Part shown: positions 3,001 to 8,696 of the stretch, in pieces
Layout: the number at the start of each line of letters is the position of its first letter
How positions within the stretch are numbered: the stretch's first letter is position 1
Source: a virus
Taxonomy: Duplodnaviria; Heunggongvirae; Uroviricota; Caudoviricetes
Reading direction: 5' to 3' (one strand)
IMG/VR virus record: IMGVR_UViG_2751185959_000005
DNA: 8,696 nt
Position numbers: made by a program

Positions 3001-6000
3001 ATACTTCCGGTTATATTTATCGTTGTTGTTGGCTCAGGGGCGCCACCTCGCCTGTTTGTTTTAATGCCTATAGTAGCAGTAATTTTGTTTTCTTGCTTAA
3101 GCAATTTTCGCTCTATAAAATACCTAAACTGCATGTTTTTTTTATTTATTATATTTAATGGCGTTTCAACATCCAAAAATCTATTTTTGAATGATACTCT
3201 CGCAAGACAGAAAGATATCTCTTTAGCTAAAGAAATATCATACACATCTCAAACAAAAGGCATTTCCCTTAACGGAAAATATATATATATATATGGTTCA
3301 AACGACTCAGGAAATATGCTCTCCATGAGCGCAGACACTTTTGGAAAATCTTTTTTTTGGTGGGATGGTGGCAACTATTTTAGGATGGTTGCATTTATGA
3401 ATTACTATGGAATCTGTAATTGCAAACCAGCAAATAAAGAACAAATAGAGAAGATTTATCCAATTGTGAAGAGTTTACCTTCCTGGCCGAATCCAGATTC
3501 GATAGCTGAAATAAATGGTTTGGTGATAATAAAACTATCAGAGAAAAAAGGGTGGCTTCCATTTAATATTTAGCTTTGATAGATTTATTTATTATTAAAG
3601 AGCGCCTCCCTTTTTCAAGCTCAAAATAATACACACATCAATGGATGCAATCACAAATAGACGGAGGGGCTGAATGCCCCTTTAAATACCTTACACTCAA
3701 ATATCTATATACAATCACACTAACCGTTTCTAATATTAGTCAATTAAAAAATTAGCAATACCATTTACAAGCGTTTACCCAAACTTAACACTGAGAATTG
3801 AAGTTTAACCGCCTAATTACATAACACTAGCGACTCTGCTTTTGGGAGGCATGGGTCACTCAGGCCAAATGACATCCGACGGTTTCACGATGAACTACGG
3901 CAAAAGAATATCAGAGCCCTCATTCCTCCCCGAAAGGCTGAGGGATCCCCAGAAAATTTTCATCAGTAAGCCAGCACCATACTTCGGTAAGTGCTGGCCA
4001 ACCGGCACAATATCTTTTCAGGTTGTGCTCGTCGTAGAAGTTCAGGGTTAAATCTCAGGACGTTTTCAGCCAGCGTCAGAAAAGACAATACTCTTCGTTT
4101 TTTGAGACTATTAGCCTGATACTTTAAATGAAATCCTTTATTTTCAAAATGATAACCAAGTAGCCAGAGTACGATACTGGCCAGTGTAACCAGTAGACTT
4201 AATACCAGAAAACGCTCTCCCCTCCGACTTCTGCTCGCCCGAAGGCCAAAACCAAAGCGTTCACTTTTTTCATCCCGAAAGTTTTGCTCTATCTGCATTC
4301 TTCGACTGTACAGTTTCATGATTTTTTTGGCATTAAACTCAGCTGTATTGCTGAATATTAACCATGGTTCTCTGCCTGCGGCTTTTTGTTCTTTTTCCGT
4401 TGTTGGTAAGCCCGGCCTCCCTCTGGCACGCCTGCTTTTTCTGCCTTTAGGTGAATGTTTATAAAGATAAAAATGTCCTTCACACTGCGAGCGTTTTTTC
4501 CGGGCCAGGGTTCCCGTCCCCAGGTATTTTGCCTCTGAACTCCCCCTGCACATTTTTATGTCCAGCCACTTATCTTTGTCACTATCCAGCCTGAACTTCA
4601 CTACCCCCCTGATACGACCAATAAAATCCCATCCCTGTGATTTGATATGACGGAACCATGCACTTTGAAAACCAGCATCAGTAACAATAACAACACGAGT
4701 CCGGGGAGAAATGGCCCCGGAAAGCGCATCCAGAAAAGCGATTTCCACCGCCTCGTTATTTTTTTTTGACGGGAAGACCTGACTCATCAGGGGGATAGAG
4801 CGACCGTCGCAGAGGAGGCTGGCACGAAGGACATGATATTCCTGAAAAGGGTAACCGCTCCAGTCAACAGCGATAACACACCACGACAGTTTATTTGTCA
4901 TCATGGATGTAATATTTTTGAATATCAGAGGGATATCATTATGAAGTCGTTTATTACCCAACAGACAGTCAACGCGTTTTATTTTATCTTTCACGCGAGC
5001 AGGACCGGGTAAATGCCGGCCAATGCTGGTAAGAGAAAGAGATGCGCCACCGACTAAAGCAGCAGCAGAATCAATAATGGCATTTTGTCGATACTGATGC
5101 GTGGAAGCTAAAGCATTACGGAAAAAAGTCTGGCATACTTTACGGGCAGGCATAGAGGTGATCTCATTGAATTTGTTAGCGCAATCAGTAGATCACAAAA
5201 CTCTATGCCTGTCTTCTTTTCTGGGGATTCCTCAGCCTAAAAGGGAGCGGGCTCTGGTCTGGTGAGTATGCAGATCGTAAAGGCTATGACCATGGTGCGA
5301 GAGTGGCAGGTATGCCAGAAAGAGGATGTATTGCCTGAAACTCTAACCTGATGCAGAGACGATTATCTTGAACCTGATTTATTCAACAAAGCCGCTGGCA
5401 GAATGTTACGAAAGTTATCGCGGCCGCAGGCTGATTTGATATCGATACTATCGGTGGTACTGCGGAAGTAAATGCCTATATAGTGCGACTTTGAAAAATA
5501 ATAAATTAATATTGAACTCGTTGATTAATAATCATAAACTTTCAGGCATTCATATTTGCAATGAGTGTTTAAAAATCACACAAAACTGGAGAGCCTACTT
5601 TAAATGTATAATAACAAAATCGACAGCAACAGAAAAATAAGACATGATTGGGTTGATGCTTTAAAATTTCTCGGTATTTTTGCTATATATTTAGGTCACC
5701 TTGGGTTGGGGGCTGGCAAATTGTATCCTTTTGTTTTTAGTTATCACGTCCCACTATTCTTTTTCGCTGCTGGTTTTTTTACTATCAAAAAAAATGACTT
5801 ATCTGTTTTCGATTATATCAAGTCAAAGTTTTACAGATTAATGATTCCATATTTCACTTTTGCATTTTCTATATTAATAATAAACACAATTAACTCAGGT
5901 GAGACGATTGATTATATATACAACCACATTTATGATATAATATATGGTGTTAGAAATAACCAATTCGTAGGAACAATATGGTTTATAAACTGCCTTTTTG

Positions 6001-8696
6001 TTATAATAGCAATTGATGCAATCTTTAGAGAAATAGTCAAGAACAATATAGTGATTTTAATCATATCACTGTTATCGTTCATGTTGTCACAAACAGTGCT
6101 CAATCATAACCCATTACTAGATCCTCAATGGTTTTGGAACATAGACTCCGCTATGGCATACTGGTGGTTATTGCCTCTCGGTAGATGTATGTTTTTAGAA
6201 TTAACACGTGACAGGTTTTTTGGAAAATCTAAAATTGGTTTCATTGTCTTCTCAATTACCGCTATAATGAGTGCGTATCAACTACTTAACCAGAAACCTT
6301 TACTTTTTAAGATTATCTCAATATTCAATGCAGACATAATATCAAGTAGTTATATTCAAGCTATTAATACTATTATCACCACGGTAGGCTTGATAATCTT
6401 TAATATTTTCATAGCAAAAATAATTTGTGGAAATGACTTTATTGTAAGAGCTGGAAGAAATACTCTTAACATATGTGGAATGGAGTATATCACCAAATTA
6501 TTTATCCCTATGGCTTTAGCAATTATAGGCTTCAGCGTGACTATTCCAAATCCTATCTGCGCAATCATATATACCTGTATTTGTGTATATGTATCAGATA
6601 AAATTGGCCATTGGCTATCGAGGACAGTCGGTGGGCCATTTTTGATAAAATGATAAAAAGGCGCAATTAATTGCGCTTTTATAGATATATAGCGCATATT
6701 TATGCTCAGATTATACTGTTAAAATTAATGCGCAAATGTTACGGTTTTCTTTCCTAGCAACTGAAGGGAATGTTCGAAGTGCAAACATAAAATTACCCCT
6801 TCACTGAACAGATATTCAGTCGACCAACACATGAGAAAGAAATACACCAGATGAATTAAAATATCATATACTTATTAATCAAAGAAATAAAAGCATAAAC
6901 AGTAGGTGGTGACGCTGATAAACTGGCTATAAACAACCTGGAAGGTGATGAGCTATCGCAATATAATTTATTGGCGAATTATTTGAAGCCAATTGATAAC
7001 ACCAGTGCTCAAAAGACTCCCCCCGGTAACCATAAGTAGCTAATATCTAGTACAGTTTCGATATCTATTATCGTTACTGCGTCGATATAGTCTAAATAGC
7101 TGCACCTAATTCTGCCACACTTGTCGTTTACAGATGGGTAATGTGTTGCGTATGGGCAACAAAACTCAAGCCAGATATAACACAACCTAGCTGAGAACGC
7201 CTTCCTGATGCTTCGCCCAGCAAGGGCTGAGCGAAAGTGGAGCACTTTTCTGCGCAGCTATTTAGGACAGTATTGAGTCATATTGTTTATGTATGAGTTA
7301 AGTTTCGTAATATCAATTAAATAAAATAAGTTGAAATCATTGTAGAAGTGAGCATTATACCCAGGCTACCTGAACCTACTGAAAAACGAGTATTATTCCA
7401 ACAATTATCCTAGATTAACAAGTCTATTTATTTGGATGCATAGGCCACTCGGGTTTTACTACATTAACACGCATAAGCAGCACCCGATATTTTTTCCATG
7501 CCAGTAACAGTTTCGTTTCATCATCTGTTGCCATACCTAAATCAACCGCATCCTGAAGCGGAGCTATTACATTCGTTGCCTCTGCTATCAGTGCAGATTT
7601 CTTTTCATCATTTATTAAGGCTAATTGTTCTGGTGTTGGAGAAGGACGGTCAACAATGACAGGATGACCGTTCTCACCACAGGTAATCATTTTTGTTACA
7701 CTCTGTGCATTAATCAGTGTTTTCCACTCTGATTCCGAGATTTCCACTGCATCATCAGGAATATTGGTGCCGTGAAATTCAGTCGAATAAAATCCGTTTG
7801 TCGATGCAGAATAAAAATATGACATTTTGTTAATATCCCATTGCAATGTAATACGCATCAGCAGATGAACCGTATCCTGAACCGGGCGACACAGTAATAT
7901 TAAATCCAGTGTTCTGGACACTTGTCGCCGATACAGTCGGCTGCCCAGCCGCGCCAGTAACGTTCAATGTAACTACGACAGCAATTACTCTTGAGAACGT
8001 CATCGGGAACCTCATCCCGTATGTTGAAGATACATTCGGGGCACCATTCAACTGACCGCACTGTAAAATTAATCCAGACGGAAATTTTTGCGCAGCAGCC
8101 GTTACGGTATTAATTGACGCGAACAGGCTCATATCAGGTATCTGATTCGCCCCTGTACCTACATTCCTTTTAGCTGCTTCTCCCAAACCAAGGTTTTCGA
8201 GAGCCGTTTTCACCGTGCCATCCGATTTGATATCGCCAAACGGATTCTTGCGGCTTAACAGCAGCGCGCGAAGTGCGGTAAGCAACTGATCGTGCCGCCC
8301 CTTCTCCAGGCTGGCACCGGATGCCTCCACCACGCTGCAAAGCTCCTCCTGCAACATGTCAAAGTAGTCATCATCCAGATCGGTGGCAGGCGTGCCAGTC
8401 TGGGGGTTACCACGGGTAAAACCGTTCTTACCCGCGCCGAACTTATCCTTCTTCGCGGTTTTCGTGTCTATACGATGCATGGATTACTCTGAGGTGTACT
8501 GGCAATAGCGGACACTACCATTTGTTCTTTTTTTAAGCAGCCATCTGATGATATTTTTCCCTGAAGGCTGCCGGGGAGATATTCCCCAGACGAGAGTGAC
8601 GACGCTGACGATTGTAGAAAATCTCAATGTATTCCCGTATTACTGAGATGGCTTCATCCCGGTTATTAAAACGATAGTGGCTCAGGCTCTCATTTT

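What the first reader, a model, noticed from the sequence alone, without database searches (positions are those of the whole stretch)
5604..6653. Acyltransferase-3-type membrane enzyme downstream of the gtr operon: combined glucosylation and probable O-acetylation locus
Seen: a 349-aa AT-rich multi-TM protein with an acyltransferase-3-like N-terminal motif, on the same strand as gtrABC, followed by a strong terminator. Established: O-antigen O-acetyltransferases of this family (Oac-type) are phage-borne serotype-conversion factors in Shigella and Salmonella. Inference: the module may specify two independent O-antigen modifications. The gene resembles what I recall of oacD-type genes associated with SfII-like prophages, but I cannot confirm this without a search.
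Basis: partly seen in the sequence, partly recalled or inferred. Interest (0 to 1): 0.55.

Follow-up and report, generated by a model that had tools for sequence, protein, structure and literature searches.

The report
Known Shigella O-antigen acetyltransferase gene oacD
The gene is oacD, the already characterised acetyltransferase of Shigella phage SfII that adds an acetyl group to the GlcNAc sugar of the Shigella flexneri O-antigen; it sits next to the gtrII glucosylation genes in a decayed prophage, so the finding is correct but ordinary.

Summary
An intact 349-codon ORF lies at 5604-6653 (+), with 31.6% GC and about ten hydrophobic segments. It matches Pfam Acyl_transf_3 (PF01757) at E=1.6e-12, 47.6 bits against a cut-off of 31. 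A hairpin followed by a T-run comes directly after the stop codon.

The DNA is 99.8% identical to Shigella phage SfII, and the protein matches 347 of 349 residues of SfII_25, the only acyltransferase gene in that phage. Published work (Sun et al. 2014, plus later knockouts checked by 1H-NMR) shows that the SfII acyltransferase OacD 6-O-acetylates GlcNAc of the S. flexneri O-antigen (group O-factor 10). GtrA/GtrB/GtrII glucosylate RhaI (type II antigen). The locus therefore specifies two independent modifications.

Two corrections apply:
- oacD is not part of the gtr operon. A complete IS4-family element (ISSfl9, 3926-5247, transposase on the opposite strand) lies between gtrII and oacD.
- The window is not the free phage. 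It is an 8.3-kb SfII remnant bounded by inverted IS600 copies, 99.9% identical to chromosomal loci whose exact OacD protein the source databases name as Shigella.

Verdict: already known, low interest.

The parts
5604..6653 (+). oacD coding sequence (349 aa, stand-alone acyltransferase-3 membrane protein)
   Evidence: ORF. Pfam PF01757 E=1.6e-12. 347/349 residues identical to SfII_25. Exact protein found on at least 1000 contigs and named as Shigella by the sources.
5588..5593 (+). Shine-Dalgarno-like GGAGAG, 10 nt before the ATG
   Evidence: Read directly from the sequence; inference only.
5512..5540 (+). Weak candidate promoter TTGAAC-17 nt-TAAACT (8 of 12 matches), in the AT-rich stretch between ISSfl9 and oacD
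   Evidence: My own reading. It falls below the 9/12 threshold of the scan, which found no + strand site between 5248 and 5603. Speculative.
6657..6683 (+). Hairpin plus T-run directly after the oacD stop; putative rho-independent terminator, flanked by an A-run and so possibly bidirectional
   Evidence: dG -11.7 kcal/mol, z -3.5. Annotated as a terminator in the SfII record. Detected on the - strand by the scan.
3926..5247 (-). ISSfl9 (IS4 family) insertion sequence between gtrII and oacD; transposase ORF 3963-5153 on the - strand; 31-nt imperfect terminal inverted repeats at 3926-3956 and 5217-5247
   Evidence: NCBIfam NF033591 IS4 transposase E=2.6e-108. Inverted repeat I1. RefSeq SfII annotation 'IS4-like element ISSfl9 family transposase'.
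828..1190 (+). gtrA (flippase for bactoprenol-linked glucose)
   Evidence: Pfam PF04138; SfII annotation.
1187..2116 (+). gtrB (bactoprenol glucosyltransferase)
   Evidence: Pfam PF00535; SfII annotation.
2113..3573 (+). gtrII (serotype-specific glucosyltransferase, 486 aa, GC 31.8%)
   Evidence: Pfam PF14264 Glucos_trans_II E=4.7e-30; SfII annotation; GC.
208..566 (+). 3' remnant of a phage integrase gene, truncated by IS600
   Evidence: Translation shows the IS600 transposase end, stop codons, then the integrase C-terminus. Pfam PF00589. 99% identical to the mEpX2/HK75/SfX int genes.
1..211 (+). End of an IS600 copy (left boundary of the prophage remnant)
   Evidence: 100% match to annotated IS600 in E. 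coli genomes. Inverted copy of 8489-8696.
8489..8696 (-). End of a second, inverted IS600 copy (right boundary of the prophage remnant)
   Evidence: The match to SfII ends at 8489.
7424..8480 (-). Tail fibre assembly gene (7424-7858) and short tail fibre gene (7830-8480), the backbone genes flanking the cargo region
   Evidence: Pfam PF02413 and PF21882. SfII annotation. Homology to SfV resumes at 7443.

Best explanation
The ORF is oacD, the O-antigen O-acetyltransferase gene of serotype-converting phage SfII. Here it sits in an IS600-bounded remnant of an SfII-type prophage in a Shigella flexneri-type chromosome.

OacD is a stand-alone acyltransferase-3 (AT3) inner-membrane protein with about ten transmembrane helices. 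By analogy with other AT3 enzymes, it takes an acetyl group from cytoplasmic acetyl-CoA and passes it through the membrane domain. This step involves the conserved TM1 K21-X10-H32 motif and the K75-x-x-R78 motif in the first cytoplasmic loop. The acetyl group ends up on O-6 of the GlcNAc residue of the O-antigen repeat on the periplasmic side, creating group O-factor 10.

The neighbouring gtrA-gtrB-gtrII genes independently add glucose to RhaI (type II antigen). oacD is probably transcribed on its own, because ISSfl9 separates it from gtrII, and it ends at its own hairpin terminator.

Shown here: the gene's identity, family membership, motifs, synteny and intactness. Taken from the literature: the chemical product and the serological effect. 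Inferred from the family: acetyl-CoA as donor, the transmembrane relay, and the topology.
For: Identity
- DNA 5300-6900 is 99.8% identical to Shigella phage SfII.
- The protein is 347/349 identical to SfII_25.
- SfII has exactly one acyltransferase CDS.
- Sun et al. [quoted passage not shown]

Function, from the literature
- oacD confers O-factor 10. A 2457T delta-oacD strain becomes serotype 2a3 (PMC8973906).
- 1H-NMR shows loss of GlcNAc O-acetylation in delta-oacD, and loss of all O-acetylation in the delta-oacB delta-oacD double mutant (PMC8623282).

Context
- Gene order gtrA-gtrB-gtrII-ISSfl9-acyltransferase-tail fibre assembly is identical to SfII.
- The whole window is 99.93-99.98% identical to chromosomal loci that encode the exact protein. 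In those loci oacB lies about 4.7 kb downstream. This fits the published layout: oacD and gtrII on the SfII prophage, and oacB on an adjacent element upstream of adrA.

Family
- PF01757 above the gathering score.
- About ten hydrophobic segments. The N-terminus and loop 62-78 are rich in K/R, which suggests they are cytoplasmic.
- D18, H32, F52, F53, G57 and R78 are invariant in an alignment with Oac and OacB, and K21 aligns with their Arg of the R-X10-H motif.
- These motifs and the acetyl-CoA donor evidence for AT3 proteins are described in PMC9558356.
Against: - The primary paper (PMC4187690) is not held. The equation oacD = SfII_25 therefore rests on SfII having a single acyltransferase gene, plus secondary papers.
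- I could not display the accession WP_000282635, which PMC8952252 cites for OacD, next to the window protein.
- No sigma-70-like promoter of at least 9/12 matches was found between ISSfl9 and the start codon.
- The RXXR motif is not canonical. It reads K75-x-x-R78, and the automatic alignment instead puts R78 on the first Arg, which leaves I81 at the second position.
- The window protein differs from phage SfII_25 at two residues (V68I, A320S).
- No activity was measured here.
Confidence: 0.96

Rival explanations
1. The ORF is an intact but silent passenger of a decayed prophage. ISSfl9 cuts it off from the gtr promoter, it has no promoter of its own, and it contributes nothing to the O-antigen in the strain the window comes from.
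For: - The prophage is heavily decayed: int is truncated, IS600 sits at both ends, and ISSfl9 sits upstream.
- No + strand promoter match of at least 9/12 lies between 5248 and 5603.
Against: - The free, functional phage SfII has the same ISSfl9-oacD arrangement.
- Knockouts of oacD in S. flexneri 2a, whose oacD and gtrII are described as carried on the SfII prophage, abolish GlcNAc acetylation.
- The ORF is intact, and the identical protein is kept on at least 1000 contigs.
Confidence: 0.02
2. It is an AT3 acyltransferase whose main or additional substrate is something other than O-antigen GlcNAc O-6. Candidates include another sugar position, enterobacterial common antigen or peptidoglycan.
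For: - OacD shows no significant BLASTP similarity to Oac (E=0.41) or OacB (E=0.63).
- It has no PHROG or NCBIfam family.
- Its nearest other phage homologue is in a Lysinibacillus phage at 31% identity.
- AT3 proteins act on many acceptors (PMC9558356).
Against: Published genetics and NMR assign 6-O-acetylation of GlcNAc specifically to oacD. Deleting oacB and oacD together removes all O-antigen O-acetylation. Nothing here points to a second substrate.
Confidence: 0.02
3. It is not an acyltransferase at all, but another AT-rich polytopic membrane protein such as a Wzy-type polymerase or a transporter.
For: Low-GC, multi-TM ORFs next to O-antigen genes are often Wzy or Wzx. Pairwise BLASTP to Oac and OacB is not significant.
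Against: PF01757 is the only Pfam family hit, and it exceeds its curated threshold. The AT3 signature residues align with Oac and OacB. The gene is near-identical to an experimentally characterised acetyltransferase.
Confidence: 0.003

Closest known systems
OacD (SfII_25, AGQ45515.1 / YP_008318503.1) of Shigella phage SfII
   Same: - 349 aa, 347/349 residues identical.
- Same flanking genes: gtrII, ISSfl9 and the tail fibre assembly gene.
- Same terminator position.
- Function known from the literature: 6-O-acetylation of O-antigen GlcNAc, O-factor 10.
   Different: - Two conservative substitutions (V68I, A320S).
- A 2-bp indel just after the terminator stem.
- The window copy sits in an IS600-bounded chromosomal remnant with a truncated int of a different allele, not in an intact phage.
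Oac / OacA of Shigella phage Sf6 (2-O-acetylation of RhaI)
   Same: - Stand-alone AT3 membrane protein of similar size (333 aa).
- Phage-borne serotype-conversion factor next to int or tail genes.
- Shares the R/K-X10-H motif, the FFxxxG motif and a conserved loop Arg.
   Different: - About 14% identity; BLASTP not significant (E=0.41).
- Different acceptor sugar and position.
OacB of phage Sf101 and the chromosomal island next to the SfII remnant (3/4-O-acetylation of RhaIII)
   Same: - AT3-only O-antigen acetyltransferase.
- Lies about 4.7 kb from oacD in the same chromosomes.
- Shares the N-terminal motifs.
   Different: - 390 aa; BLASTP not significant (E=0.63).
- Different acceptor.
- Carried on a different mobile element.
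OafA / OafB of Salmonella (AT3-SGNH O-antigen acetyltransferases)
   Same: Same AT3 membrane domain family and the same R/K-X10-H motif in TM1 (PMC9558356). These enzymes also modify the O-antigen.
   Different: They carry an 11th TM helix and a periplasmic SGNH domain that performs the final transfer. OacD ends after the AT3 domain (349 aa, Pfam hit 15-290, no second domain), so it must complete the transfer itself or with an unknown partner.

Membership tests
Acyltransferase-3 (AT3, Pfam PF01757 / IPR002656) | Significant match to the family profile, above the curated threshold | tested here: met
   E=1.6e-12, 47.6 bits against gathering score 31; residues 15-290 on profile positions 2-282 of 326.
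Acyltransferase-3 (AT3, Pfam PF01757 / IPR002656) | Polytopic membrane protein with about ten TM helices (stand-alone architecture, no SGNH domain) | tested here: met
   A crude Kyte-Doolittle scan gives about ten hydrophobic segments in 349 aa. No second Pfam domain is present. No dedicated topology predictor or structure model was run.
Acyltransferase-3 (AT3, Pfam PF01757 / IPR002656) | R/K-X10-H motif in TM1 | tested here: met
   K21-X10-H32. H32 is invariant, and K21 aligns with the Arg of Oac and OacB. The motif is defined in PMC9558356.
Acyltransferase-3 (AT3, Pfam PF01757 / IPR002656) | RXXR motif in the first cytoplasmic loop | tested here: inconclusive
   The sequence reads K75-F-Y-R78 in the K/R-rich loop 62-78. 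R78 is invariant with Oac and OacB, but MAFFT aligns it to their first Arg, which leaves I81 at the second position. PMC8952252 reports a Lys in place of one of the two Arg residues in OacD.
Acyltransferase-3 (AT3, Pfam PF01757 / IPR002656) | Acyl-CoA-dependent O-acylation of an extracytoplasmic acceptor | not testable with these tools
   Shown biochemically for other AT3 proteins (TmaT, CmmA, OatA). For OacD only the genetic and NMR phenotype is reported.
OacD (SfII O-antigen GlcNAc 6-O-acetyltransferase) | Near-identity to the single acyltransferase gene of phage SfII | tested here: met
   99.8% DNA identity and 347/349 protein identity. SfII has one acyltransferase CDS.
OacD (SfII O-antigen GlcNAc 6-O-acetyltransferase) | Location in an SfII-type prophage next to gtrA-gtrB-gtrII | tested here: met
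   Window 563-8489 is collinear with SfII at 99.6%. oacB lies downstream in the matching chromosomes, as published.
OacD (SfII O-antigen GlcNAc 6-O-acetyltransferase) | Confers 6-O-acetylation of GlcNAc and group O-factor 10 | not testable with these tools
   Literature only: Sun et al. 2014 as cited; knockout plus 1H-NMR in PMC8623282.
Oac / OacB / OacC subfamily of Shigella O-acetyltransferases | Detectable pairwise sequence similarity to Oac or OacB | tested here: not met
   BLASTP E=0.41 against Oac and E=0.63 against OacB. tblastn against all phages finds neither Sf6 nor Sf101. OacD is related to them only at the AT3 profile and motif level. PMC8952252 reports 13% identity to OacB.

The most novel reading that the evidence does not exclude
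OacD is a deep-branching, stand-alone AT3 unrelated to Oac/OacB at the pairwise level. Its very low GC (31.6%) and its nearest other phage homologue (a Lysinibacillus phage ORF, 31% identity) suggest that it reached an enterobacterial phage from a low-GC, possibly Gram-positive, donor together with or beside gtrII. The 8.3-kb module, bounded by inverted IS600 copies and carrying gtrII and oacD, might now move as a composite unit independent of the phage.
Probability: 0.15. Interest if true: 0.25.

Novelty: already known. Interest (0 to 1): 0.07.

Why it matters
The gene matters for Shigella serotyping and for O-antigen vaccine design. O-factor 10 and GlcNAc O-acetylation are features of the dominant serotype 2a, and oacD status affects susceptibility to phage Sf6. 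All of this is already published. The one open question that touches this gene is general to the family: how stand-alone AT3 enzymes complete acetyl transfer without an SGNH domain. This window adds no new leverage on that question.

Tried and rejected
- NCBIfam: no family for the ORF.
- PHROGs: no family.
- PDB sequence search: no hit at E up to 1.
- BLASTP against Oac (Sf6) and OacB (Sf101): not significant.
- tblastn against 50,697 phage records: only SfII, plus two weak hits in non-enterobacterial records (a Lysinibacillus phage and an unclassified faecal phage contig).
- The primary oacD paper, PMC4187690, is not held.
- The exact-sequence look-up returned names but no accession for the window variant. 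The link to WP_000282635 could not be shown.
- Promoter scan: no + strand site of at least 9/12 matches in the 356 bp upstream of the ORF.
- No target-site duplication was found beside the ISSfl9 inverted repeats.
- Rfam and tRNA scans of the whole window were empty. The thrW-type attP region therefore carries no complete tRNA here.
- The antisense ORF 6356-6697 (113 aa) and the ORF 7009-7245 (78 aa) have no Pfam match and were treated as spurious.
- I deliberately did not run the large homologue searches or a structure prediction. The identity of the gene was already settled, so the cost was not justified.
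Full report
**Observation.** The window contains an ATG-initiated ORF at 5604..6653 on the + strand that encodes 349 aa. Its GC content is 31.6%, against 42-47% for gtrA, gtrB and the tail genes. A 19-residue hydropathy scan gives about ten hydrophobic segments. Pfam returns one family, Acyl_transf_3 (PF01757), at E=1.6e-12 and 47.6 bits against a curated cut-off of 31. The match covers residues 15-290 on profile positions 2-282 of 326. The ORF is on the same strand as gtrA (828-1190, PF04138), gtrB (1187-2116, PF00535) and a 486-aa GtrII-type glucosyltransferase (2113-3573, PF14264). 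Directly after the stop codon lies a hairpin at 6657-6680 followed by T-rich sequence. Its dG is -11.7 kcal/mol and its z-score is -3.5 against 200 shuffles. 'Strong' overstates a stem that has four G-C pairs plus A-U extensions.

**Identity.**
- DNA 5300-6900 is 99.8% identical over its whole length to Shigella phage SfII (KC736978 / NC_021857), under a CDS annotated 'acyltransferase' followed by a 'terminator'.
- The protein matches 347 of 349 residues of SfII_25, differing at V68I and A320S.
- The complete SfII record has exactly one acyltransferase CDS, SfII_25.
- Sun et al. [quoted passage not shown] The AT3 review PMC9558356 names that gene oacD.
- PMC8973906 states that gtrIIBA and oacD are both carried by the SfII prophage between proA and adrA. 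It also states that oacD confers group O-factor 10 and that deleting it in strain 2457T gives serotype 2a3.
- PMC8623282 confirms by 1H-NMR that delta-oacD loses GlcNAc O-acetylation, and that delta-oacB delta-oacD loses all O-antigen O-acetylation.
- The primary paper itself is not held. The equation oacD = SfII_25 therefore rests on the single-gene argument plus these secondary sources. I regard that as secure.

**Surroundings.**
- Window 563-8489 is collinear with SfII at 99.6% identity. The order is gtrA, gtrB, gtrII, a transposase on the opposite strand, the acyltransferase, a terminator, a tail fibre assembly gene and a short tail fibre gene.
- The transposase is IS4-family (NF033591, E=2.6e-108), and RefSeq annotates it as ISSfl9.
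- The element is bounded by 31-nt imperfect inverted repeats at 3926-3956 and 5217-5247. I found no target-site duplication.
- oacD is therefore 2,030 bp from the gtrII stop and separated from it by a complete IS. It is not part of the gtr operon and presumably has its own promoter.
- The consensus scan found no + strand site of at least 9/12 matches between the IS and the start codon. By eye there is an 8/12 candidate, TTGAAC-17-TAAACT, at 5512-5540, and a GGAGAG Shine-Dalgarno sequence 10 nt before the ATG. Both are inferences.

**What the window is.**
- It is not the free phage. Positions 1-211 and 8489-8696 are inverted copies of IS600.
- The left copy truncates an integrase gene to its last ~120 codons. 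That remnant is 99% identical to the int genes of mEpX2, HK75 and SfX rather than to SfII int.
- The whole 8,696 bases are 99.93-99.98% identical to six chromosomal loci that encode the exact OacD protein.
- The index lists that exact protein in 1,782 blocks of the collection, and the sources name it '[Shigella flexneri]' or 'MULTISPECIES ... [Shigella]'.
- In those chromosomes a second AT3 gene lies about 4.7 kb downstream, after IS600 and an integrase. It is 388/390 identical to OacB of phage Sf101. [quoted passage not shown]
- Compared with phage SfV, backbone homology stops at 2094 (the end of gtrB) and resumes at 7443, inside the tail fibre assembly gene. The SfII-specific cargo is therefore gtrII, ISSfl9, oacD and about 750 bp of unannotated DNA.

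**How it works.** OacD is a stand-alone AT3 protein with no SGNH domain.
- The family's TM1 motif R/K-X10-H is present as K21-X10-H32.
- In an alignment with Oac (Sf6) and OacB (Sf101), D18, H32, F52, F53, G57 and R78 are invariant. K21 aligns with their Arg.
- The first K/R-rich loop (62-78, five K/R residues) carries K75-x-x-R78. This is a conservative variant of the RXXR motif that is essential in Oac. The register is ambiguous, because MAFFT places R78 on the first Arg.
- PMC8952252 also notes a Lys replacing one of the two Arg residues in OacD.
- From the family: acetyl-CoA has been shown to be the donor for TmaT, CmmA and OatA, and a transmembrane relay is the proposed general mechanism (PMC9558356).
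- The most likely mechanism is therefore uptake of acetyl from cytoplasmic acetyl-CoA, transfer through the AT3 domain, and esterification of O-6 of GlcNAc on the O-antigen repeat at the periplasmic face.
- The product is taken from the literature. The donor and the relay are inferred. How AT3-only enzymes complete the final transfer is an acknowledged open question for the whole family.

**Relationship to other Shigella acetyltransferases.** OacD is related to Oac and OacB only at the profile and motif level.
- BLASTP gives E=0.41 against Oac and E=0.63 against OacB.
- tblastn against all phage records finds neither Sf6 nor Sf101.
- PMC8952252 reports 13% identity to OacB.
- There is no PHROG, NCBIfam or PDB match.
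The Pfam profile and the near-identity to SfII_25 are what decide the matter.

**Rivals.**
- A silent passenger gene is unlikely. The free phage has the same ISSfl9-oacD arrangement, and knockouts in serotype 2a abolish GlcNAc acetylation.
- A different or additional substrate cannot be excluded computationally, but nothing supports it.
- A non-acyltransferase membrane protein is excluded.

**Verdict.** The finding is correct in both observation and interpretation, including the tentative oacD recall. It describes a gene and a two-modification locus that were characterised experimentally in 2014 and used repeatedly since. Novelty: already known. Interest: low (0.07).

Noticed in passing
window 1-211 and 8489-8696: Both ends of the window are inverted copies of IS600. 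The SfII material is therefore an ~8.3-kb remnant (int', gtrA, gtrB, gtrII, ISSfl9, oacD and two tail fibre genes) in a composite-transposon-like frame.
   Followed up: partly
window 208-566: The integrase remnant is truncated by IS600. It is 99% identical to the int genes of mEpX2, HK75 and SfX, and 92% to SfV across 208-2094. It does not match SfII int at megablast level, because the SfII match starts only at 563. The prophage is therefore a mosaic at its left end.
   Followed up: partly
window 3926-5247: ISSfl9 lies between gtrII and oacD in the free phage SfII, in the Shigella-type chromosomes and in an E. coli prophage (SCU-124). The insertion therefore appears to be old and shared. No target-site duplication was found beside its inverted repeats.
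   Followed up: partly
L003-L008, about 11786-12958 (about 4.7 kb downstream of oacD): A second AT3 gene, 388/390 identical to OacB of phage Sf101, follows IS600 and an integrase gene. In these chromosomes all three serotype 2a modification genes sit within about 12 kb.
   Followed up: yes
L009 (E. coli SCU-124) and hits H3-H13: 11 of 5,426 complete E. coli genomes carry the oacD region at 97-99% identity. SCU-124, the one locus I opened, has the full gtrII-ISSfl9-acyltransferase arrangement inside a fuller SfII-like prophage. There gtrB, gtrII and the transposase are annotated as frameshifted, but the acyltransferase is intact. In AR_0061 the acyltransferase is split by IS903B.
   Followed up: partly
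window 2113-3573 and 5604-6653: gtrII (31.8% GC) and oacD (31.6% GC) are far more AT-rich than gtrA/gtrB (42%) and the tail genes (47%). Both serotype-specific genes look like foreign cargo. The only other phage homologues of OacD are a Lysinibacillus phage ORF (31% identity, E=5e-12) and a faecal phage contig.
   Followed up: no
window 6690-7423: About 730 bp between the oacD terminator and the tail fibre assembly gene are SfII-specific, with no counterpart in SfV. They are unannotated in SfII and contain only a 78-aa ORF with no Pfam match.
   Followed up: partly
window 6676: The window lacks 2 bases relative to SfII immediately after the terminator stem. In all there are 29 differences from SfII across 563-8489, with a cluster at 5188-5247 in the right end of ISSfl9.
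   Followed up: no
L006 2510-3970: One chromosome that encodes the identical OacD has no gtrII gene called at the expected position, and the window-to-L006 alignment has 4 gaps. gtrII may be frameshifted there while oacD stays intact.
   Followed up: no
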